A DNA stretch of 55,177 nucleotides from a virus (Duplodnaviria > Heunggongvirae > Uroviricota > Caudoviricetes). This document shows, piece after piece, positions 25,730 to 37,491 of the stretch; positions within the stretch are counted from its first letter, which is position 1; every line of letters begins with the position of its first letter. Under the pieces are notes generated by a model. The model saw only the letters and a program-made list of their open reading frames with translations. It made no database searches and was not told the origin of the DNA. The stretch is from the IMG/VR virus record IMGVR_UViG_2541047719_000008; one strand, written 5' to 3'. Both the position numbers and the translations under genes were made by a program.

Positions 25730-25975
25730 ATGGGATTGTTTACGACCCGCCAGTTACTCGGTTATACCGAACAAAAAGTTAAATTTCGTGCGCTGTTTCT
25801 GGAGCTGTTTTTCCGCCGTACGGTGAATTTCCATACCGAAGAGGTGATGCTGGACAAAATTACCGGAAAAACGCCGGTGGCGGCCTATGTCTCCCCGGTT
25901 GTTGAAGGAAAAGTGCTGCGTCATCGTGGTGGTGAAACCCGCGTGTTGCGTCCGGGCTACGTCAAGCCGAAGCAC
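25730..25975 (+). pseudogene. E: Major capsid protein E, N-terminal fragment (interrupted by the inserted element)
   Basis: First ~82 codons match lambda gpE up to RPGYVKPKH, then the frame runs into unrelated sequence and stops at 26005. Confidence 0.85.
25965..25975. other. Left junction core repeat (attL-like) AGCCGAAGCAC
   Basis: 11-bp sequence at the point where E homology ends; an imperfect copy AGCCGAAACAC lies where E homology resumes (36698-36708). Confidence 0.55.
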
Positions 25976-26137
25976 TTAGCATGGCTTTCTGAGGCTTTCG
26001 TGTAGTTGCTGGTTTTTACACTTAATCTTTTGATAATAAAGAGTAAGTTTATCTGGCGCTTTCACTGGATTTTCCTCGTTATCTGTGTGTTGCAATCATC
26101 TCTGTATTGCAGCTTGTATTGCTTTTTGGGGCTAAAA

Positions 26138-27373
26138 ATGGCTGGCGAGAACAAACTGAGCGACAAAGCACTTAAAGGATATCTGGGGAAACCTAGAGAA
26201 AAGCAGATCACCATTGCTGATGGAAAGGGGCTTTCTATTCGTGTGAGTACCAAGGGGGCTGTGAGCTTTGTTTTCTTCTACAGGTTAGCAGGTGGCCGGG
26301 CTGCTCCGGTCTGGCTAACGTTGGGTAAATATCCTGATATGTCACTCAAACAGGCAAGGGAAAAGCGCGACGAGTGCCGTGGTTGGTTGGCTGACAAACG
26401 TGATCCGCGTATTCAGATTAAGATTCAGGCTGAAGAACGCTTAAAGCCGGTCACAGTGGAGGATGCACTAAATTACTGGTATGAAAATTACTGTAAGGTG
26501 CGTCGTAAAACTCATGCTGTAACGCTTGGCAGATTTCGAAAGCATATCTTTCCCTATATCGGTCATTTGCCCGTAAATGACACTCACCTATATGAATGGC
26601 TGGACTGTTTTGACCGAATTAAACGTAATGCACCAGTTATGGCGGCGTATGTTTTTTCTGACACTAAATTAGCTCTTCGTTTTTGTCGGGTACGCCAGTA
26701 CGCGACGTGTGATGCTTTAAAGGATTTGCGCATGAGTGATGTGGGGCAGATTGCAGGTAAGCGGGATCGGGTTCTGGATGAAGCCGAACTGGGCCAGCTC
26801 TGGAAGGCAATTTTTGTCGAGCCTGATTTAAAACTAATGTCTGAATACACGCGAAAAATGTTTGTGCTTTGTACAGTATTTGGATGTCGAATGAGTGAAG
26901 CCCGATTATCAGAATGGAGCGAATGGGATCTAGAAAGTTGGGTTTGGACTGTACCGAAAGATCACTCAAAAACTGGTGTTGAAATTGTCAGGCCAGTACC
27001 TGAAATTCTACGGCAGTGGGTAACGGATGTTCACGAAGAGACAAAACATACTGGTTATGTGCTGGGAAGTCTGCGAATTAGAGAAAGCGTAAGCAAGATT
27101 GGGGGGAAAATCGGTAAACGTTTGGGCCATGAAAAACAATGGTCACTACACGACCTTAGAAGAACGCTATCTACTCATCTAAGTGATCTCGGTGTTGAAT
27201 TTTATGTAGTAGAACAACTGTTAGGCCATGCGCTACCTGGCGTGGCAGGTGTTTACAACCGGAGTAAGTTTATGGCTAAAAAACTGGATGCTCTGGAACT
27301 CTGGACTACATATCTCAATAGCATCGCAGCTGCTGATTCAAAAGTGACAATCCTCAAACAAAAGGCTGGTTAG
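26138..27373 (+). CDS. int: Tyrosine integrase, P4-type
   Basis: N-terminal LSDKALKGYLGKP...GKGLSIRVS (P4-integrase N-domain) and C-terminal catalytic HDLRRT ... GH...Y motifs; start taken at MAGENK rather than the upstream ORF start at 26006. Confidence 0.85.
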   Translation: MAGENKLSDKALKGYLGKPREKQITIADGKGLSIRVSTKGAVSFVFFYRLAGGRAAPVWLTLGKYPDMSLKQAREKRDECRGWLADKRDPRIQIKIQAEERLKPVTVEDALNYWYENYCKVRRKTHAVTLGRFRKHIFPYIGHLPVNDTHLYEWLDCFDRIKRNAPVMAAYVFSDTKLALRFCRVRQYATCDALKDLRMSDVGQIAGKRDRVLDEAELGQLWKAIFVEPDLKLMSEYTRKMFVLCTVFGCRMSEARLSEWSEWDLESWVWTVPKDHSKTGVEIVRPVPEILRQWVTDVHEETKHTGYVLGSLRIRESVSKIGGKIGKRLGHEKQWSLHDLRRTLSTHLSDLGVEFYVVEQLLGHALPGVAGVYNRSKFMAKKLDALELWTTYLNSIAAADSKVTILKQKAG

Positions 27374-27374
27374 C

Positions 27375-27596
27375 ATGAAAAAAATGGCAATTGTTGATAA
27401 AAAGGGGCTGGAGTACATTCCTAACATTGACCGAATGATCCGTGAGAAAGAATGTCGGGAGCTAACCACTCTTGCGAACAGCACACGCTGGAAGCTTGAA
27501 AAGGAGGGGAAATTCCCCAAGCGAATCAAAATCGGATCTACGGCGGTGGCTTATAGACTCTCTGAGATTCAAGCTTGGATAAGAGGTGAATGGTAA
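27375..27596 (+). CDS. alpA: AlpA-family transcriptional regulator/excisionase
   Basis: 73 aa; REKECRELTTLANSTRWKLEKEGKFPKRIKIG...AYRLSEIQAWI matches the AlpA pattern; directly follows int. Confidence 0.75.
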   Translation: MKKMAIVDKKGLEYIPNIDRMIREKECRELTTLANSTRWKLEKEGKFPKRIKIGSTAVAYRLSEIQAWIRGEW

Positions 27597-27622: not shown

Positions 27623-28306
27623 TTACAGGAAATTTTTTAAATCAGGGTTTTTTCCAAATGCGCTCTTATAATATACTGTTGCAATCTCGTTAAAAATAGT
27701 TTTTATATCATCGGTAACCACTATTGTTGCTACGCGCAAATCTTTTTGATATTCATTTAAATCTGGAGGGGTATAGTCCAATAGCGTTGATTTATCCAAG
27801 ATTAAATGTTCTAACATGGCATAGCGCTCAATCAATGTTTTATAAAAATGATATTGATTTTCACTGTTAGCATGTGCACAGTTTATTGCAAGTAAATACG
27901 TTATTTCATTATCTAGATGTGCACGGACAAGGCTTGTATAGGTTTTTTTACGATCTAGATCAAAGGGATGGTATCCAGCATTTTCATCAATGAACTTCAA
28001 TAGATGATATAATATTCTGAAGTAGCTTCCAAAAACAGCATCATGATTGTGCATCAGTGTATTAGTGTCTTTTAAAGAAACCAATCCATTCATCATTTTA
28101 TTAATTAACTCTGAGTAATTTGATTTTTTTCTAAGATCATTTAGAGCATTGTTATGTTGAGATAACATGAGAGAAAATGTTGATTCAAAAGATGATTGCT
28201 TTTTAGCAATTAATGCAACTAACACTGCTGTGCAAGTCCCGAGTGCCACGAAGAAATTTATAATGTTTGATGCAGTGAATACAGCATCGTCAGGAGTTGG
28301 AGTCAT
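27623..28306 (-). CDS. AT-rich cargo gene: hypothetical membrane-anchored protein, candidate abortive-infection/defence factor
   Basis: 227 aa on the opposite strand to int-alpA; one N-terminal hydrophobic helix; markedly AT-rich compared with its neighbours; no confident family assignment. Confidence 0.5.
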   Translation of the reverse strand: MTPTPDDAVFTASNIINFFVALGTCTAVLVALIAKKQSSFESTFSLMLSQHNNALNDLRKKSNYSELINKMMNGLVSLKDTNTLMHNHDAVFGSYFRILYHLLKFIDENAGYHPFDLDRKKTYTSLVRAHLDNEITYLLAINCAHANSENQYHFYKTLIERYAMLEHLILDKSTLLDYTPPDLNEYQKDLRVATIVVTDDIKTIFNEIATVYYKSAFGKNPDLKNFL

Positions 28307-29255: not shown

Positions 29256-29543
29256 ATGAAAAATAAATTTTCTGGCTTTATTGCCAGCGGTCAAACTCAT
29301 TCAAAAATCAGCCTTGGGGATATTTTCAAAGATAGCTATGGCTATCGGGTAAAGATTATTTCGGTTGATGATCGTCGTGTCTCTTATTTGCGTGATGGTT
29401 ATGATTTTGAATGTGTTATGCCGCGTCAGCAGTTCGAAAGAGATTTCATTCTGGTAAAAAATTGCAAGACAGATAATCAGAGGCGTGCCGCAGGCTATAT
29501 CCGTAAAATTCGGGCAATGTTAGTTGCCGGAGGTAACAAATGA
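29256..29543 (+). CDS. Hypothetical protein
   Basis: 95-aa ORF immediately preceding and overlapping the primase start. Confidence 0.4.
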   Translation: MKNKFSGFIASGQTHSKISLGDIFKDSYGYRVKIISVDDRRVSYLRDGYDFECVMPRQQFERDFILVKNCKTDNQRRAAGYIRKIRAMLVAGGNK

Positions 29544-31360
29544 AACGTGCTCCGAACTTAAAATACCAACCGCGCGACAAAATGACGGAAGTCATCATTT
29601 TTGCTGGCAGTGATGCCTGGAGCCATGCAAAAGAATGGAATGAATGGGCAGGTAAGCATATTGCAGCAGATGATACACCACCAGTCATTCTGGGTACGGA
29701 ACAACTGGAAAACCTGGATGATATGCAAATTATCGATGAAGGCCGTCATTATGTGCGTGTTTATCGTGCCGGAAAGATTGCAGAGAAAAGTCTGACGAAG
29801 GTTGCGACATTACTTGCTATTGCAGGCGTAAAGGAAGCACGTTGTTACCGTAGCTTTGTTGATCGAGAGCCTGAAGACTGGACTCCGCGCCTTGTCGGCC
29901 TAAAAGCTGAAGCGGAGCATGGGGAAAGTCTGGTGATTGAACTGCCAGTGAAGAAGGCAGAGCGCAAAAATGACGAGCGTGCTTCATCTTTGGCGTTGAA
30001 TCAGATGGGGGCCAGCCAGCGCGGTGAAGTTCTCCTTGCACATTACGGCGGCGAACTGGCAATCAATGCCGACTCTGACACCGTTCATCATTACAACGGC
30101 GTTGTATGGGAGCCGGTTCAGGATAAAGAGTTACAGCGTGCTATGGCGCAGATTTTCATTGATGCGGAGATCAGCTATTCGCAGAACGCCATTAAATCGG
30201 CGGTAGATACCATGAAGTTAAGTTTGCCTGTAATGGGGAATACAGCCCGTAACCTGATTGGATTCAGTAACGGGGTATTTGATACCAGAACTGGTAATTT
30301 TCGGGAGCATAACAAAAACGACTGGTTGTTAATTGCCAGTGAATTACCTTTCAGCCCACCAGCAGAGGGGGAAACGCTGGCAACACATGCGCCGAATTTC
30401 TGGAAGTGGTTGCGCCGTTCGGTGGCTGAGAATGACCGCAAGGCAGATCGCGTACTGGCGGCATTATTCATGGTGCTGGCGAACCGGTACGACTGGCAGT
30501 TATTCATTGAGGTAACAGGGCCGGGGGGAAGTGGTAAAAGTGTGATGGCGGAGATTTGCACCATGCTGGCGGGTAAGGCGAATACAGTATCAGCAAGCAT
30601 GAAGGCGCTGGAAGATGCAAGGGAACGTGCGTTAGTGGTTGGCTTTTCGCTGATTATCATGCCGGATATGACCCGCTACGCTGGTGATGGGGCAGGGATT
30701 AAGGCCATTACAGGCGGTGACAAGGTGGCAATTGACCCGAAACACAAAGCCCCCTATTCAACGCGTATTCCGGCAGTAGTGCTGGCGGTTAACAATAACG
30801 CCATGTCATTCAGTGACCGCAGCGGGGGGATCTCACGTCGTCGGGTGATATTCAATTTTTCGGAAGTTGTACCGGAGAACGAACGCGATTCGATGCTGGC
30901 GGAAAAAATAGAAGGTGAGCTGGCGGTAGTGATTCGCCATCTGCTTACACGGTTTGCTGATCAGGACGAAGCCAGACGCCTGTTATATGAGCAGCAGAAA
31001 TCTGAAGAAGCACTGGCGATAAAGCGAGAGGGGGATTCGCTGGTGGACTTCTGCGGCTATCTCATGGCATCGGTAATGTGTGATGGCCTGTTAGTGGGTA
31101 ATGCTGAAATTGTGCCATTCAGCCCACGCAGGTATCTCTATCATGCCTATCTGGCTTATATGAGGGCACATGGGTTTGGTAAACCTGTAACACTGACGCG
31201 CTTCGGTAAAGATATGCCGGGGGCAATGGCGGAATATGGCAGGGAGTATATGAAACGGAAAACGAAGCACGGTTTGCGTTCAAACGTGACACTGACGGAG
31301 GAATCAGAAGACTGGATGCCATCATGTGTATCGGTCACTAATGACGATAGCAAAAATTAA
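29540..31360 (+). CDS. Primase/helicase replication initiator (P4-alpha / PICI Pri-Rep type)
   Basis: 606 aa with Walker A GPGGSGKS in the C-terminal half (D5/P4-primase-type NTPase); followed directly by an iteron array. Confidence 0.8.
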   Translation: MKRAPNLKYQPRDKMTEVIIFAGSDAWSHAKEWNEWAGKHIAADDTPPVILGTEQLENLDDMQIIDEGRHYVRVYRAGKIAEKSLTKVATLLAIAGVKEARCYRSFVDREPEDWTPRLVGLKAEAEHGESLVIELPVKKAERKNDERASSLALNQMGASQRGEVLLAHYGGELAINADSDTVHHYNGVVWEPVQDKELQRAMAQIFIDAEISYSQNAIKSAVDTMKLSLPVMGNTARNLIGFSNGVFDTRTGNFREHNKNDWLLIASELPFSPPAEGETLATHAPNFWKWLRRSVAENDRKADRVLAALFMVLANRYDWQLFIEVTGPGGSGKSVMAEICTMLAGKANTVSASMKALEDARERALVVGFSLIIMPDMTRYAGDGAGIKAITGGDKVAIDPKHKAPYSTRIPAVVLAVNNNAMSFSDRSGGISRRRVIFNFSEVVPENERDSMLAEKIEGELAVVIRHLLTRFADQDEARRLLYEQQKSEEALAIKREGDSLVDFCGYLMASVMCDGLLVGNAEIVPFSPRRYLYHAYLAYMRAHGFGKPVTLTRFGKDMPGAMAEYGREYMKRKTKHGLRSNVTLTEESEDWMPSCVSVTNDDSKN

Positions 31361-31373
31361 ACTTATGGAATAA

Positions 31374-31596
31374 CTGTTCACCACTGTTCACCCTGTCATA
31401 AATATCTTTTATATCAGTATATTATAGGGTGAACAGTTATTTATGAACTGTTCACCAAACTATTCACTGTTCACCTTTTTGATTGTTTATTGAGCTTCAA
31501 GGGTGAACAGTGGTGAACAGTTGGTGAATAGTTTTTGTGAAACTGTTCACCCATTAACATTATGAATTAAAAGAGAAAATATCAAAAGGTGAACAG
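31374..31596. repeat. Iteron array, candidate replication origin of the element
   Basis: At least nine copies of the 9-mer CTGTTCACC/GGTGAACAG in both orientations (e.g. 31374, 31384, 31428, 31448, 31467, 31502, 31512, 31543, 31588) in AT-rich non-coding DNA. Confidence 0.7.
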
Positions 31597-32550: not shown

Positions 32551-33597
32551 ATGCGTATGGTTGATTTATATTCGCCTACCCAGCTTGTACAGGTGGTTAA
32601 TGCTGTAGATGTACAAAAACAACTAAATGCGTTGTTTACCAGTTTGTTTTTTACTCGCTCGGTAATGTTTGAATCGCGCGATATTATTCTTGATACAATC
32701 GACGATCCAAATATCCCAATTGCAGCGTTTTGTTCTCCTATGGTGGGTAGTAAAGTTTCACGTGACGAAGGGTACGAATCAAAAACAATTCGTCCAGGCT
32801 ATATGAAGCCGAAAAGCAGCATTGATCCAAATAAGTTAGCTGTGCGCCCTGTTGGTGTATCACCTGAGCAATACAATGCTTTTGGAGCGCGTAATATTAA
32901 AGTTAAACAGGCGATTGTAAATCAGGCTAAAGCTATTCGTGCACGTATTGAATGGCTTGCCGTTCAGGCAATCACAACGGGGAAAAATATCATTGAGGGC
33001 GATGGTATTGAACGTTATGAGCTGGACTGGAATATTAAACCACAAAATATCATCACTCAGTCTGGCGGTGCTGAGTGGTCAGGTAAGGATAAAGAAACTT
33101 TTGATCCAAATGATGATATTGAGAGCTACGCAGAATTTAGTGAGGGCGTCACTAATATTATCATTATGGGCGGTAATGTATGGAAGAAATACCGTTCATT
33201 CAGAGCGATAAAAGAGGCTCTGGATACCCGTCGTGGTTCTAATTCCGAACTGGAAACGGCCCTTAAAGACCTTGGTGATTCGGTGAGTTTTAAAGGGTAT
33301 ATGGGCGATGTTGCGATTGTTGTTTACAGCGGGCGTTATACCGACGAGGACGGAACAGAAAAACATTTCCTTGATCCTGATTTGATGGTGCTTGGCAATA
33401 CGGCTCTTCAGGGGATTGTCGCCTATGGCGGTATTCAGGATCCGGAGCTAATCCGAATGGGGCTGACTAAAGCCGAACTTGCACCGAAAAACTATATTGT
33501 GCCTGGTGATCCGGCTATTGAATATGTGCAGACACATTCAGCACCACAGCCAATACCGGCCCGCATCAATCGTTTTGTTACCGTTCGCATTGGCTAA
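32551..33597 (+). CDS. Major capsid protein, lambda E-like paralog encoded by the inserted element
   Basis: Full-length homology to the split prophage E gene (RPGYMKPKS vs RPGYVKPKH; LDTRRGSNSELETALKDLG; YSGRYTDEDG; GDPAIEY). Start at MRMVDLY with AAAGAGG RBS; the tool ORF starts at 32383. Confidence 0.8.
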   Translation: MRMVDLYSPTQLVQVVNAVDVQKQLNALFTSLFFTRSVMFESRDIILDTIDDPNIPIAAFCSPMVGSKVSRDEGYESKTIRPGYMKPKSSIDPNKLAVRPVGVSPEQYNAFGARNIKVKQAIVNQAKAIRARIEWLAVQAITTGKNIIEGDGIERYELDWNIKPQNIITQSGGAEWSGKDKETFDPNDDIESYAEFSEGVTNIIIMGGNVWKKYRSFRAIKEALDTRRGSNSELETALKDLGDSVSFKGYMGDVAIVVYSGRYTDEDGTEKHFLDPDLMVLGNTALQGIVAYGGIQDPELIRMGLTKAELAPKNYIVPGDPAIEYVQTHSAPQPIPARINRFVTVRIG

Positions 33598-35776: not shown

Positions 35777-36538
35777 TTATTTCCCATCTTTAAGGTTTAA
35801 CCAAGTGTTAATTAAAAAAAGAGCCATTGAGCCTGATAAATTTACTGCAAGTTCGGCATGCCTTGGGGATGGCTTAATTGATGAGCTGTTCGTTCCATGT
35901 GCATCACCGAGTTTATTACGAAGAGTACCTAACCCATTTACAACTGCAGAACAACCGCCGAGAATTTGTTTGAAGATATTTTCAGTATGTTGGTCGGCAG
36001 ATAGGTTAAGTTCTTTTGAAAGAGTTTTATAAAGCTCTGACATTTCAATATTTTTATTATTATACTGAATGCCCATATCATCAAGAATGTGTTTGCAAAC
36101 TGTTTCAAGAAGTGTTCTTGCGGAGGTTATCGCACCATCCGGATCTGTATGGCGCCGTTCAAGTGCTTTTATCCAAACGGCGTGGACTCCATCCTCGTTA
36201 AACTTTCTTAATACATCAGATATGTCTTCATCCGCTGGAGCTTTATTTTTCCCTTCTAGATAGTCCAGCATCGGCTGAAATGCCTTATAAATCAAATCTC
36301 TCCGGGGGGCATACTTTTCAGTCTTTTTTATAAATCCCCAAAATTCTTTTAGTGAGCGATTAGTTCTCACAAACTCTGGTAATAGCTGATGTAAAGGAGG
36401 ATTTTGTAAGAAATATGTTCTTAGAAGCAAATAATCATTATTAGCTTCATCCTGGGCTCCTGTAGCTCTTGCAATTAGTATGTTTTGAAGCGCTACTGCG
36501 CGCTCTAGGTCATTTTGAAGGGTATCTATAATATTCAT
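35777..36538 (-). CDS. AT-rich cargo gene: Abi_C-like (abortive infection C-terminal domain) protein
   Basis: 253 aa; C-terminal GTLRNKLGDAHG resembles the conserved R-N-x-x-G-x-A-H-G signature of Abi_C domains; opposite strand and AT-rich. Confidence 0.5.
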   Translation of the reverse strand: MNIIDTLQNDLERAVALQNILIARATGAQDEANNDYLLLRTYFLQNPPLHQLLPEFVRTNRSLKEFWGFIKKTEKYAPRRDLIYKAFQPMLDYLEGKNKAPADEDISDVLRKFNEDGVHAVWIKALERRHTDPDGAITSARTLLETVCKHILDDMGIQYNNKNIEMSELYKTLSKELNLSADQHTENIFKQILGGCSAVVNGLGTLRNKLGDAHGTNSSSIKPSPRHAELAVNLSGSMALFLINTWLNLKDGK

Positions 36539-36697
36539 AACAAATCTTTATTCACTTCATTTGTGGGTTGATAATTGAATGGTTTGTACATTGATTTCTG
36601 TGTATTGCAGTGTGTATTGCAACATAGCCATTCAGGTAGAGATTATGCTCTATTTTTCCTCTTATATCATTCACATACTTACACCATTGACTCATGT

Positions 36698-36708
36698 AGC
36701 CGAAACAC
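36698..36708. other. Right junction core repeat (attR-like) AGCCGAAACAC
   Basis: Imperfect copy of the left junction 11-mer, at the exact point where the E reading frame resumes. Confidence 0.55.
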
Positions 36709-37491
36709 GAATTTAATTACCAGCAGGCGGTTGAGCGCCTTCCTGGTGAAGATCCATCTCAACTGAACGATCCGGCTTACCGCCGTCTGCGTATCATTAC
36801 CGATAACCTCAAACAGGAAGAGCACGCGATTGTCCAGGTGGAAGAAATGCAGGCGGTAAATGCTGTGTTGTATGGCAAATACACCATGGAAGGAGACCAG
36901 TTCGAGAAAATTGAGGTCGATTTTGGCAGGTCGACGAAGAATAACATCACACAGGGTAGCGGTAAGGAATGGTCAAAACAGGATCGTGACACGTTCGATC
37001 CTACACATGATATTGACCTTTACTGCGACCAGGCCAGCGGTCTTGTGAATATTGCCATCATGGACGGTACCGTCTGGCGTCTGCTGAATGGTTTTAAGCT
37101 GTTTCGCGAAAAACTGGATACCCGTCGCGGTTCAAATTCACAACTCGAAACGGCAGTGAAAGATCTGGGCGCAGTGGTGTCCTTCAAGGGGTATTACGGC
37201 GATCTGGCTATTGTTGTGGCGAAAACGTCTTATATAGCAGAAGACGGTATCGAAAAACGTTATCTTCCAGATGGCATGCTGGTCCTGGGGAATACTGCTG
37301 CAGATGGGATCCGTTGTTACGGAGCCATTCAGGATGCGCAGGCGTTTTCCGAAGGTGTGGTGGCTTCTTCCCGTTATCCGAAACACTGGCTGACGGTGGG
37401 GGATCCTGCCCGTGAATTTACCATGACGCAGTCCGCACCGCTGATGGTGTTGCCGGACCCGGATGAGTTTGTGGTGGTACAGGTGAAATAA
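36700..37491 (+). pseudogene. E: Major capsid protein E, C-terminal fragment
   Basis: Frame opens after a TAG at 36697-36699 and reads PKHEFNYQQAVERLPGEDP ... DPAREFTMTQSAPLMVLPDPDEFVVVQVK, matching lambda gpE from about residue 80 to the end. Confidence 0.85.

What the first reader, a model, noticed from the sequence alone, without database searches (positions are those of the whole stretch)
26085..26121. TGTATTGCA-type repeats just inside both ends of the element (candidate integrase arm sites)
GTGTTGCAATC...TGTATTGCAGCTTGTATTGC lies ~110-145 bp inside the left junction (26085-26121), and TGTGTATTGCAGTGTGTATTGCAAC lies ~80-105 bp inside the right junction (36595-36622). Paired short repeats near both ends of an integrative element are typical of tyrosine-integrase arm-binding sites and support the proposed boundaries.
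Basis: seen in the sequence. Interest (0 to 1): 0.4.

Follow-up and report, generated by a model that had tools for sequence, protein, structure and literature searches.

The report
Integrase arm sites of a helper-embedded satellite
The TGTATTGCA repeats are real and mark both arms of the attachment site of a phage satellite inserted in its helper prophage's capsid gene; this exact motif was published in 2023, and comparison here indicates that the integrase's N-terminal arm domain binds it.

Summary
The tandem doublet TGTATTGCA-n3-TGTATTGC(A/T), period 12 nt, occurs on the + strand at 26103-26123 and 36601-36621. About 0.03 such doublets are expected per window. A weaker copy lies at 26086-26094.

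The doublets lie inside a 10.7-kb island. It is cut into the major capsid gene of a phage-21-like prophage (attL core 25965-25975, attR core 36698-36708).

This is an '11capE' helper-embedded PICI. The doubled motif tgTGTATTGCantgTGTATTGCa, 81 and 132 bp either side of the attP centre, was already reported by Tommasini, Mageeney and Williams 2023 (PMC10111431). They left the binder open: Int arm domain, AlpA or an unknown protein.

What I add:
- Nearly all of 80 relatives of this integrase carry a 12-nt-period doublet at the same place. Its sequence differs by clade, with at least six classes.
- Five classes share the same fis core and the same geometry.
- Motif class tracks the Int arm domain (AUC 0.99), not AlpA (0.79). 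AlpAs that are 94-97% identical sit with different motifs.
- The experimentally mapped IntS arm-type sites of KplE1 have the same layout.

Verdict: the repeats are Int arm-type sites. This is inferred, with no binding data. The finding is already known and of low-to-moderate interest.

The parts
25730..25975 (+). 5' fragment of the helper prophage major capsid gene (lambda E / phage 21 gene 7 type), cut at about codon 80
   Evidence: It is 98.9% identical to the phage 21 capsid gene, and RefSeq annotates it as a partial major capsid protein. The core covers codons 79-81.
25965..25975 (+). attL identity block AGCCGAAGCAC; the likely 7-nt crossover region is AGCCGAA (25965-25971)
   Evidence: attB in phage 21 reads AAGCCGAAACACGAA. 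The G/A difference at position 8 between attL and attR places strand exchange in the first 7 nt (inference).
26023..26035 (-). IHF-consensus match TATCAAAAGATTA (WATCARNNNNTTR), between the core and the P' doublet; a candidate bending site
   Evidence: this is the only match in the two arms, against a window density of 0.24 per kb; an AAnnnnTTGAt block is partly conserved at this position in class A elements with other cores. It is a candidate only.
26086..26094 (+). Degenerate fifth copy TGTGTTGCA, 17 nt upstream of the P' doublet; a possible weak third P' arm site
   Evidence: In one search a block TTCTGGnnGTTnCA is conserved here in most class A elements, but the half-site itself is only partly conserved (GTTGCA, GTTTCA or GTTACA). 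Inconclusive.
26101..26124 (+). P' arm doublet ctCTGTATTGCAgctTGTATTGCT (half-sites 26103-26111 and 26115-26123). It ends 14 nt before the int ATG and starts 134.5 nt from the centre of the crossover.
   Evidence: The same doublet lies 33-63 nt upstream of int in 14 other class A loci and in E. coli 042.
26138..27373 (+). int: P4-type tyrosine integrase, 411 aa, with an arm-binding N domain (residues 7-93)
   Evidence: The predicted strands are 24-27, 32-36, 42-48 and 58-65, and the helix is 70-85.
27375..27596 (+). alpA (Phage_AlpA, 73 aa); the presumed excision or regulatory factor and the rival candidate binder
   Evidence: PF05930, E 1.4e-15.
36599..36622 (+). P arm doublet tgTGTATTGCAgtgTGTATTGCAa (half-sites 36601-36609 and 36613-36621). 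It ends 80.5 nt before the centre of the crossover.
36698..36708 (+). attR identity block AGCCGAAACAC
36698..37491 (+). 3' fragment of the helper major capsid gene

Best explanation
**What the repeats are.** The two TGTATTGCA doublets are the arm-type binding sites of the island's own integrase.

**The element.** The island is a helper-embedded PICI of the 11capE type. It sits in codon ~80 of its helper prophage's major capsid gene.

**The attP layout.** When the element is excised and circular, its attP reads in this order:
- P doublet
- about 80 nt of spacer
- the 7-nt crossover AGCCGAA
- about 134 nt of spacer, containing an IHF-like site
- P' doublet
- 14 nt of spacer
- int

**Proposed mechanism.** Each Int monomer is bivalent. 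Its C-terminal domains hold and cut the core. Its N-terminal four-stranded-sheet domain binds one TGTATTGCA half-site. The four half-sites can therefore engage the four arm domains of the Int tetramer and fold the arms back on the core to build the intasome, as in lambda and KplE1.

**Possible second role.** The P' doublet lies directly in front of int, so occupancy by Int probably also damps int expression or transcription entering from the helper late operon. KplE1 IntS behaves this way.

**Shown versus inferred.** Shown here: the sequence, its position, conservation, covariation with the arm domain, and the presence of the arm domain. Inferred: physical binding, stoichiometry, bending and autoregulation.
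For: 1. Two 12-nt-spaced doublets occur, against 0.027 expected. Both are on the + strand, one in each arm.

2. Int carries PF13356, and its N domain matches the solved arm-binding domains 3JU0 and 3JTZ.

3. The geometry is fixed across different cores. The P doublet ends 76.5-80.5 nt from the core centre. The P' doublet starts 134.5-136.5 nt from it. The doublets are 233-235 nt apart start to start. This holds for cores AGCCGAA, AGCCAAA, AACCAAA, ATGATGATCCA and TTACCAA, and it agrees with the published 81+/-2 and 132+/-2.

4. The layout is family-wide. Of the 80 relatives, 75 have a doublet upstream of int, almost always with a 12-nt period. The sequence depends on the clade: TGTATTGC, TGTATAAA, GTGGGGTA, GTGTATCA, GTGTAGTC or GGGTACAT. 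Five classes lie 137-140 nt from the same fis core. Where the far end of the element is in the locus, a second co-oriented doublet lies 75-78 nt on the other side of the core.

5. Covariation. Arm-domain identity predicts a shared motif class with AUC 0.987. The rest of Int gives 0.782 and AlpA 0.787. AlpA pairs that are 94-97% identical carry different motifs (L030 vs L060, L022 vs L043), and their arm domains are only 55-61% identical. Int catalytic parts that are 86-89% identical (L027 vs L041 or L033) also carry different motifs.

6. The most class-diagnostic Int residues are 23-25, 47 and 56-59. They lie on strands 1, 3 and 4 and on the 3-4 loop of the predicted arm domain.

7. Within class A the arm domain stays 64-72% identical while the rest of Int falls to 43-48%.

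8. In KplE1 the mapped IntS P' arm-type sites share TAAA, and P'1 overlaps the -10 box. The TorI sites are different, GTTCG-like. In the sequence these arm sites are GGGTAAAAagtGGATAAAA, 45 nt before intS, and GGGTAAAAtagcGGGTAAAA near attR. This is the same layout.

9. Single genomes carry elements of different motif classes: X. kozodoii has A and B, X. innexi A and C, and E. endophytica A and E. The binder is therefore encoded by the element, not the host.
Against: - No binding, footprint or mutational data exist for this motif. The only paper on it leaves the binder open.
- The covariation pairs are not phylogenetically independent. int and alpA are linked, so the AUC values are descriptive. 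The argument rests mainly on the discordant pairs.
- The AlpA homologue I took in each locus (best hit within 1.5 kb downstream of int) may not always be the excision factor.
- IntS is only a distant relative: 34% identity in the arm domain and 20% in the rest.
- No sigma-70 consensus promoter was found upstream of int, so the autoregulation step has no defined promoter to act on.
Confidence: 0.85

Rival explanations
1. The doublets are binding sites of AlpA, the island's excisionase or transcription activator. AlpA would set recombination direction or activate int.
For: The authors of PMC10111431 offered this as an alternative. alpA lies directly downstream of int (27375-27596). AlpA-family proteins bind direct repeats in att arms, as TorI does in KplE1.
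Against: - AlpAs that are 94-97% identical are paired with different doublet sequences.
- AlpA identity predicts motif class no better than the catalytic part of Int does (AUC 0.787 vs 0.782, against 0.987 for the arm domain).
- In KplE1 the TorI sites (GTTCG) are distinct from the doublets and lie between the core and the P' sites on one arm. Here the same motif is on both arms.
- The P' doublet ends 14 nt before the int ATG, which leaves no room for a promoter downstream of an activator site.
Confidence: 0.07
2. The doublets are operators for a host factor or an unidentified island repressor that controls the divergent genes flanking attP (int on one side, abi on the other). They would have no direct role in recombination.
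For: The P' doublet lies just upstream of int. The P doublet lies between a weak promoter-like site (36670-36642, - strand) and the abi gene start at 36538.
Against: - The promoter-like match is at chance level: 1 found, 1.0 expected.
- In E. coli 042 the P doublet lies downstream of the island's terL, not upstream of any gene.
- Spacing is fixed relative to the crossover, not to the neighbouring genes.
- Different motif classes coexist in one genome, which excludes a host factor.
- The motif is not IHF-like.
Confidence: 0.05
3. The repeats near the two ends are a chance similarity or a relic of shared ancestry, with no function.
For: Single copies with one mismatch are at chance density in the window: 16 found, 17.3 expected.
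Against: - 0.027 doublets are expected per window and 2 are observed.
- The doublets are near-invariant in 16 class A elements whose flanking arm sequence and Int catalytic domain have diverged to 43-48% identity.
- The same result comes from 491 HE-PICIs in PMC10111431.
Confidence: 0.01

Closest known systems
The doubled attP motif of helper-embedded PICIs (Tommasini, Mageeney and Williams 2023, NAR Genom Bioinform lqad036; model element Eco567.11capE of E. coli NRG857c)
   Same: It is the same element type, with the same target (E:Phage_cap_E:80). The motif tgTGTATTGCantgTGTATTGCa is the same, with two co-oriented copies about 81 nt upstream and about 132 nt downstream of the attP centre. 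The window is an instance of what that paper describes.
   Different: Nothing differs in the feature itself. The paper calls the doubled motif unique to HE-PICIs and leaves its binder open. Here only its sequence is unique: fis-targeting relatives carry other doublets at the same positions, and the binder is assigned to the Int arm domain by covariation.
IntS arm-type (P') sites of the KplE1 / CPS-53 prophage of E. coli K-12 (Panis et al. 2010, PMC2951348)
   Same: - The integrase belongs to the same Pfam architecture (Arm-DNA-bind_3 plus Phage_integrase).
- Tandem half-sites with an 11-12-nt period lie directly upstream of the int gene, and a second co-oriented doublet lies near the other end.
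- The arm sites overlap the int expression signals and mediate autorepression.
- The excision factor binds different sites.
   Different: - The site sequence is GGGTAAAA rather than TGTATTGCA.
- The distances are 67 and 123 nt (210 in total) instead of about 80 and 134 (234 in total).
- There are further inverted P' copies.
- The target is tRNA argW.
- Int is only 34% (arm) and 20% (rest) identical.
- Binding was shown there and not here.
Lambda attP arm-type sites P1, P2, P'1-P'3 (established knowledge; Ross and Landy 1982, cited in PMC2951348)
   Same: The principle is the same. A bivalent tyrosine integrase bridges core sites and distant arm sites. There are two sites in one arm and two or three in the other, with bending-protein sites in between.
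   Different: - The arm-binding domain family is unrelated (lambda Int N domain versus PF13356).
- The consensus, spacing and orientation pattern differ.
- Lambda int is not preceded by its arm sites in this way.
Arm-binding domains of the P4-like integrases of HPI (Yersinia) and HAI7 (Pectobacterium), PDB 3JTZ / 3RMP and 3JU0
   Same: The N domain of the window Int aligns to them (E 2e-5 and 1.6e-4). The predicted fold is a sheet plus a helix.
   Different: Sequence similarity is low. Their arm-site sequences were not compared here.

Membership tests
HE-PICI doubled attP motif (PMC10111431) | Sequence tgTGTATTGCantgTGTATTGCa (a tandem TGTATTGC core) | tested here: met
   26101-26124 is ctCTGTATTGCAgctTGTATTGCT and 36599-36622 is tgTGTATTGCAgtgTGTATTGCAa.
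HE-PICI doubled attP motif (PMC10111431) | Two co-oriented copies per attP, about 81+/-2 nt upstream and 132+/-2 nt downstream of the attP centre | tested here: met
   The P doublet core ends 80.5 nt before the centre of AGCCGAA. The P' core starts 134.5 nt after it, or 132.5 nt counted from the 2-nt lower-case prefix.
HE-PICI doubled attP motif (PMC10111431) | [quoted passage not shown] | tested here: met
   The capsid gene is split at codon ~80. int, alpA and the primase are all on the + strand, like the capsid gene. 174 E. coli genomes carry the same left end at >=98% identity.
Arm-type sites of heterobivalent tyrosine integrases | The integrase has a separate N-terminal arm-binding domain | tested here: met
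   PF13356 at residues 7-93, 69 bits against a cutoff of 27; 3JU0 and 3JTZ.
Arm-type sites of heterobivalent tyrosine integrases | Repeated sites, unlike the core sequence, in both arms of attP at fixed distance from the crossover | tested here: met
Arm-type sites of heterobivalent tyrosine integrases | Site sequence co-varies with the arm domain independently of core specificity | tested here: met
Arm-type sites of heterobivalent tyrosine integrases | Direct binding by the Int N domain, and a requirement of the sites for recombination | not testable with these tools
   This needs a gel shift or footprint and att-site mutants. No published data were found.
Arm-type sites of heterobivalent tyrosine integrases | A DNA-bending protein site between the core and the arm sites | tested here: inconclusive
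   There is one perfect IHF consensus at 26023-26035 (- strand). It is partly conserved in class A. None was found in the P arm.
Excision-factor (AlpA / Xis / TorI) binding sites | Site sequence follows the excision factor | tested here: not met
   AlpAs that are 94-97% identical occur with different doublets.
Excision-factor (AlpA / Xis / TorI) binding sites | Sites lie on one arm, between the core and the arm-type sites (as in lambda and KplE1) | tested here: not met
   The same motif is on both arms, distal to the core.

The most novel reading that the evidence does not exclude
The HE-PICI doublet is not a peculiarity of helper-embedded satellites. It is one allele of a family-wide arm-site code. 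All PICI-type integrases of this clade keep a rigid attP frame: two co-oriented 12-nt-period doublets about 233 nt apart, with the crossover about 78 nt from one and about 136 nt from the other. The doublet sequence and a few arm-domain residues (23-25, 47, 56-59) change together, independently of core specificity. Five different doublets serve the same fis core, and one doublet serves many prophage late-gene cores. This contradicts the published statement that the doubled motif is unique to HE-PICIs. It also suggests that distinct arm codes keep co-resident satellites from cross-reacting, and that arm domain and doublet could be swapped as a module.
Probability: 0.75. Interest if true: 0.4.

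Novelty: already known. Interest (0 to 1): 0.25.

Why it matters
For the window itself, the result fixes the ends and the attP anatomy of a satellite that interrupts its helper's capsid gene. It also confirms a published motif.

The wider point is modest but useful. The binder of that motif was left open in the literature, and natural variation now points clearly to the integrase arm domain. The rigid frame with interchangeable arm codes gives three things:
- a simple rule for finding the far end of such islands;
- a way to sort co-resident satellites;
- a basis for designing orthogonal integrase and attP pairs.

Tried and rejected
- **Single-copy enrichment at one mismatch.** This is at chance level, so only exact copies and doublets carry weight.
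- **Promoter scans.** No sigma-70 consensus lies between attL and int. There is one chance-level match in the P arm. I therefore could not place the doublets relative to a promoter. My attempts to read TATTGC as a -10 box were unconvincing and I dropped them.
- **Phage collection.** The island itself is absent. Only the flanking capsid gene matches, plus a distant primase hit.
- **Literature.** A search for P4-like or HPI arm-site papers returned nothing usable. Only one paper uses the term HE-PICI.
- **Second doublet in classes B and C.** No convincing second doublet appeared within 11 kb: none in class C, and in class B only two imperfect matches with no plausible core nearby (L055, L056). 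These elements are probably longer than the fetched flank, so the two-arm layout is unverified for those two classes.
- **Third half-site at 26086.** It is only partly conserved, so I do not count it as a site.
- **Core-type inverted repeats around AGCCGAA.** I looked by eye and found nothing convincing.
- **Ruled out.** A host-factor binder, an AlpA binder and chance were each considered and rejected, as set out under the rival explanations.

Full report
**1. The observation**

The quoted strings are in the window, within a few bases of the stated coordinates.
- On the left, all on the + strand, are TGTGTTGCA (26086-26094), TGTATTGCA (26103-26111) and TGTATTGCT (26115-26123).
- On the right, also on the + strand, TGTATTGCA occurs at 36601-36609 and 36613-36621.

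How far this exceeds chance depends on what is counted:
- Exact TGTATTGCA occurs three times in 55 kb, only at these two places, against 0.70 expected.
- With one mismatch the 9-mer is at chance level, 16 hits against 17.3 expected. Isolated degenerate copies elsewhere in the element therefore mean nothing.
- Two copies 12 nt apart occur twice in the window. A Markov simulation expects 0.027, and none of 300 runs gave two.
- The repeat finder pairs the two clusters as a 24-nt direct repeat that is 88% identical (D11).

**2. Where the repeats sit**

The flanks are the two halves of a major capsid gene that is 98.9% identical to that of phage 21. Aligning the intact phage 21 gene with the two junctions gives the following:

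| Site | Sequence | Coordinates |
|---|---|---|
| attB | ...GTCAAGCCGAAACACGAATT... | phage 21 |
| attL block | AGCCGAAGCAC | 25965-25975 |
| attR block | AGCCGAAACAC | 36698-36708 |

The G/A difference at the eighth position suggests that exchange occurs within the first seven bases, AGCCGAA. This is an inference.

The inserted 10.7 kb encodes the following genes:

| Gene | Coordinates / strand |
|---|---|
| P4-type integrase | 26138-27373 |
| AlpA | 27375-27596 |
| Two abortive-infection genes | - strand |
| D5-type primase | 29540-31360 |
| SSB | not recorded here |
| Its own E-type capsid gene and D-type decoration gene | not recorded here |
| A second AlpA-like protein | not recorded here |
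| A Nu1-type small terminase | not recorded here |

About 40 complete E. coli genomes carry the whole island, and 174 carry its left end at 98% identity or more. In the records listed, the annotation under the match shows the split capsid gene.

**3. It is already described**

Tommasini, Mageeney and Williams (2023, PMC10111431) describe helper-embedded PICIs. Their model, Eco567.11capE, is an 11-kb island in the capsid gene of an icd prophage of E. coli NRG857c. They found 201 such elements at site E:Phage_cap_E:80 and 290 at 13 other late-gene sites.

Their section on attachment sites reports the motif tgTGTATTGCantgTGTATTGCa. They find two co-oriented copies per attP, 81+/-2 bp upstream and 132+/-2 bp downstream of the centre. 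They say it is absent from other PICIs, including the fis PICIs. [quoted passage not shown]

In the window the P doublet ends 80.5 nt before the centre of AGCCGAA. The P' doublet begins 134.5 nt after it, or 132.5 nt counted from the two lower-case bases. The finding is therefore an independent re-sighting of a published feature in a member of the published family. No later paper in the library uses the term HE-PICI.

**4. Relatives**

In E. coli 042 a related island is inserted in a prophage terL gene. Its int 5' region is 67% identical in DNA to the window's, and its crossover is TTACCAA. It has TGTGTATTGCACTGTGTATTGCAA 41 nt before int and ACGTGTATTGCGCTGTGTATTGCTCG near its other end.

A scan of one genome per species with an alignment of Int homologues returned 80 loci. 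Fourteen have the same doublet 33-63 nt upstream of int, and four of these contain the far end with the second copy. Across five cores at three targets:
- the P doublet ends 76.5-80.5 nt from the crossover centre;
- the P' doublet starts 134.5-136.5 nt from it;
- the two doublets are 233-235 nt apart.

**5. The doublet layout is family-wide**

Printing the 100 nt upstream of int for all 80 loci showed that nearly every relative has a tandem doublet there, almost always with a 12-nt period. The sequence depends on the clade. The six classes are:

| Class | Doublet core |
|---|---|
| A | TGTATTGC |
| B | TGTATAAA |
| C | GTGGGGTA |
| D | GTGTATCA |
| E | GTGTAGTC |
| F | GGGTACAT |

In classes B to F the reverse complement of the fis 3' end (AGTTCATGCC) lies 137-140 nt upstream of the doublet in 34 loci. 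These are therefore the fis PICIs.

Where the far end lies within the fetched flank (L029, L062, L069, L081), a second co-oriented copy of that class's own doublet lies 75-78 nt on the other side of the core. The total span is 232-234 nt.

So the frame is shared, five different doublets serve one core, and one doublet serves many cores. The published statement that the doubled motif is unique to HE-PICIs holds for its sequence but not for its architecture.

**6. Which protein reads the doublet**

For 61 loci I compared pairwise identity of three protein segments with whether the pair shares a motif class.

| Segment | AUC for predicting a shared class |
|---|---|
| Int residues 1-95 (arm domain) | 0.987 |
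| Int residues 96-411 | 0.782 |
| Neighbouring AlpA | 0.787 |

The pairs are not independent, so the discordant cases matter most:
- AlpAs that are 94-97% identical accompany different doublets (L030 class C vs L060 class B; L022 class B vs L043 class D). Their arm domains are only 55-61% identical.
- Catalytic parts that are 86-89% identical accompany different doublets (L027 class D vs L041 and L033, class E).

Within class A the arm domain stays 64-72% identical to the window's, while the rest of Int drops to 43-48%.

The Int columns most informative about class are 23-25, 47 and 56-59. In the AlphaFold model (mean pLDDT 83) they lie on strands 24-27, 42-48 and 58-65 and on the loop before the last strand. 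The domain matches the solved arm-binding domains 3JU0 and 3JTZ.

Several genomes hold elements of different classes: Xenorhabdus kozodoii has A and B, X. innexi A and C, and Erwinia endophytica A and E. This rules out a host factor as the specific binder.

**7. An experimentally mapped analogue**

For KplE1 (CPS-53), Panis et al. 2010 (PMC2951348) report the following:
- IntS arm-type P' sites share TAAA.
- P'1 overlaps the -10 box of the intS promoter.
- IntS and TorI repress intS.
- TorI binds GTTCG-like sites between the core and the promoter.

In the K-12 sequence these arm sites read GGGTAAAAagtGGATAAAA, 45 nt before intS. A second co-oriented doublet, GGGTAAAAtagcGGGTAAAA, lies 67 nt from the attR core. 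The layout is the same with different words and somewhat shorter arms. IntS is a distant relative, so this is support by analogy at the family level and not proof.

**8. Mechanism proposed**

In the circular form the attP reads: P doublet, about 80 nt, crossover, about 134 nt, P' doublet, 14 nt, int. Four half-sites can take the four arm domains of an Int tetramer whose catalytic domains hold the core sites. This requires the arms to fold back.

A perfect IHF consensus lies at 26023-26035 on the - strand. It is the only one in the arms, and it is partly conserved at that position in class A. It is a candidate bend site.

The P' doublet ends 14 nt before the int start, and no sigma-70 consensus lies between attL and int. 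Int bound there cannot be acting as a classical activator target. It could instead damp int translation or transcription entering from the helper late operon. The 2023 paper proposes that late transcription propagates passively into the integrated satellite. These last steps are inference.

**9. Verdict**

| Question | Answer |
|---|---|
| Observation | Confirmed |
| Novelty | Already known |
| Increment from this work | The binder is assigned to the arm domain, and the architecture is shown to be general |
| Interest | 0.25 |

Noticed in passing
L005-L084 (the ~100 nt upstream of int in each locus); window 26101-26124: Nearly every relative of this integrase has a 12-nt-period tandem doublet just upstream of int. 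There are at least six clade-specific sequences: TGTATTGC, TGTATAAA, GTGGGGTA, GTGTATCA, GTGTAGTC and GGGTACAT. The 2023 paper calls the doubled motif unique to HE-PICIs.
   Followed up: yes
L012-L084, classes B-F; for example L029, L062, L069, L081: Five doublet classes sit 137-140 nt from the same fis 3'-end core (AGTTCATGCC). Core specificity and arm specificity are therefore uncoupled in nature, like a natural domain-swap series.
   Followed up: yes
L079 and L084 (Shewanella), about 300 nt upstream of int: The P doublet, the fis-type core and the P' doublet are contiguous, 233 nt apart, as in an intact attP. This could be the junction of a tandem pair of islands or an unintegrated form.
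   Followed up: no
window 25983-25999: GGCTTTC is repeated twice, 10 nt apart, immediately inside the attL core. It is conserved in the capE-group relatives L005 and L006 but not in other core groups. The position matches where TorI sites lie in KplE1, so these are candidate AlpA or excision-factor sites.
   Followed up: partly
window 26023-26035 (- strand): A perfect IHF consensus, TATCAAAAGATTA, lies between the core and the P' doublet. An AAnnnnTTGAt block is partly conserved at the same offset in class A elements with other cores.
   Followed up: partly
window 26060-26094 and the class A loci: A block TTCTGGnnGTTnCA is conserved 10-28 nt upstream of the P' doublet across core groups. In the window it contains the degenerate fifth copy TGTGTTGCA. 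Its function is unknown; it could be a weak third arm site or a promoter element.
   Followed up: partly
window 31359-31596: A dense array of about nine CTGTTCACC / GGTGAACAG iterons in both orientations lies downstream of the primase gene. It is the likely replication origin of the island.
   Followed up: no
window 32791-32818: The island's own capsid gene has the homologous stretch CGTCCAGGCTATATGAAGCCGAAAAGC. It shares AGCCGAA with the core but differs on both sides. The island thus carries a near-copy of its own target, which the 2023 paper suggests is too different for self-integration.
   Followed up: partly
window 27623-28306 (-) and 35777-36538 (-): There are two abortive-infection-type cargo genes (putAbiC and Abi_C). 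In most other E. coli copies part of this cargo is replaced by a TIR-domain gene. These are variable defence cargo next to the att arms.
   Followed up: no
L003 13948-15285 (E. coli 042, EC042_RS31140): RefSeq starts this int CDS 114 nt upstream of the ATG that aligns with the arm domain. The annotated reading frame therefore runs through the P' doublet, so the start is probably mis-called.
   Followed up: no
L019, L025, L029, L033, L036, L040, L061, L062 and others, between the doublet and int: A conserved ATGAACTGA (or TGAACTGA) lies 10-25 nt before the int start in classes C, D and E. It is absent in classes A and B. It could be a two-codon mini-ORF or a binding site and remains unexplained.
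   Followed up: no
L010, L011, L013, L014, L015 (Xenorhabdus / Arsenophonus class A loci): Two AlpA homologues lie in tandem directly downstream of int, instead of one.
   Followed up: no
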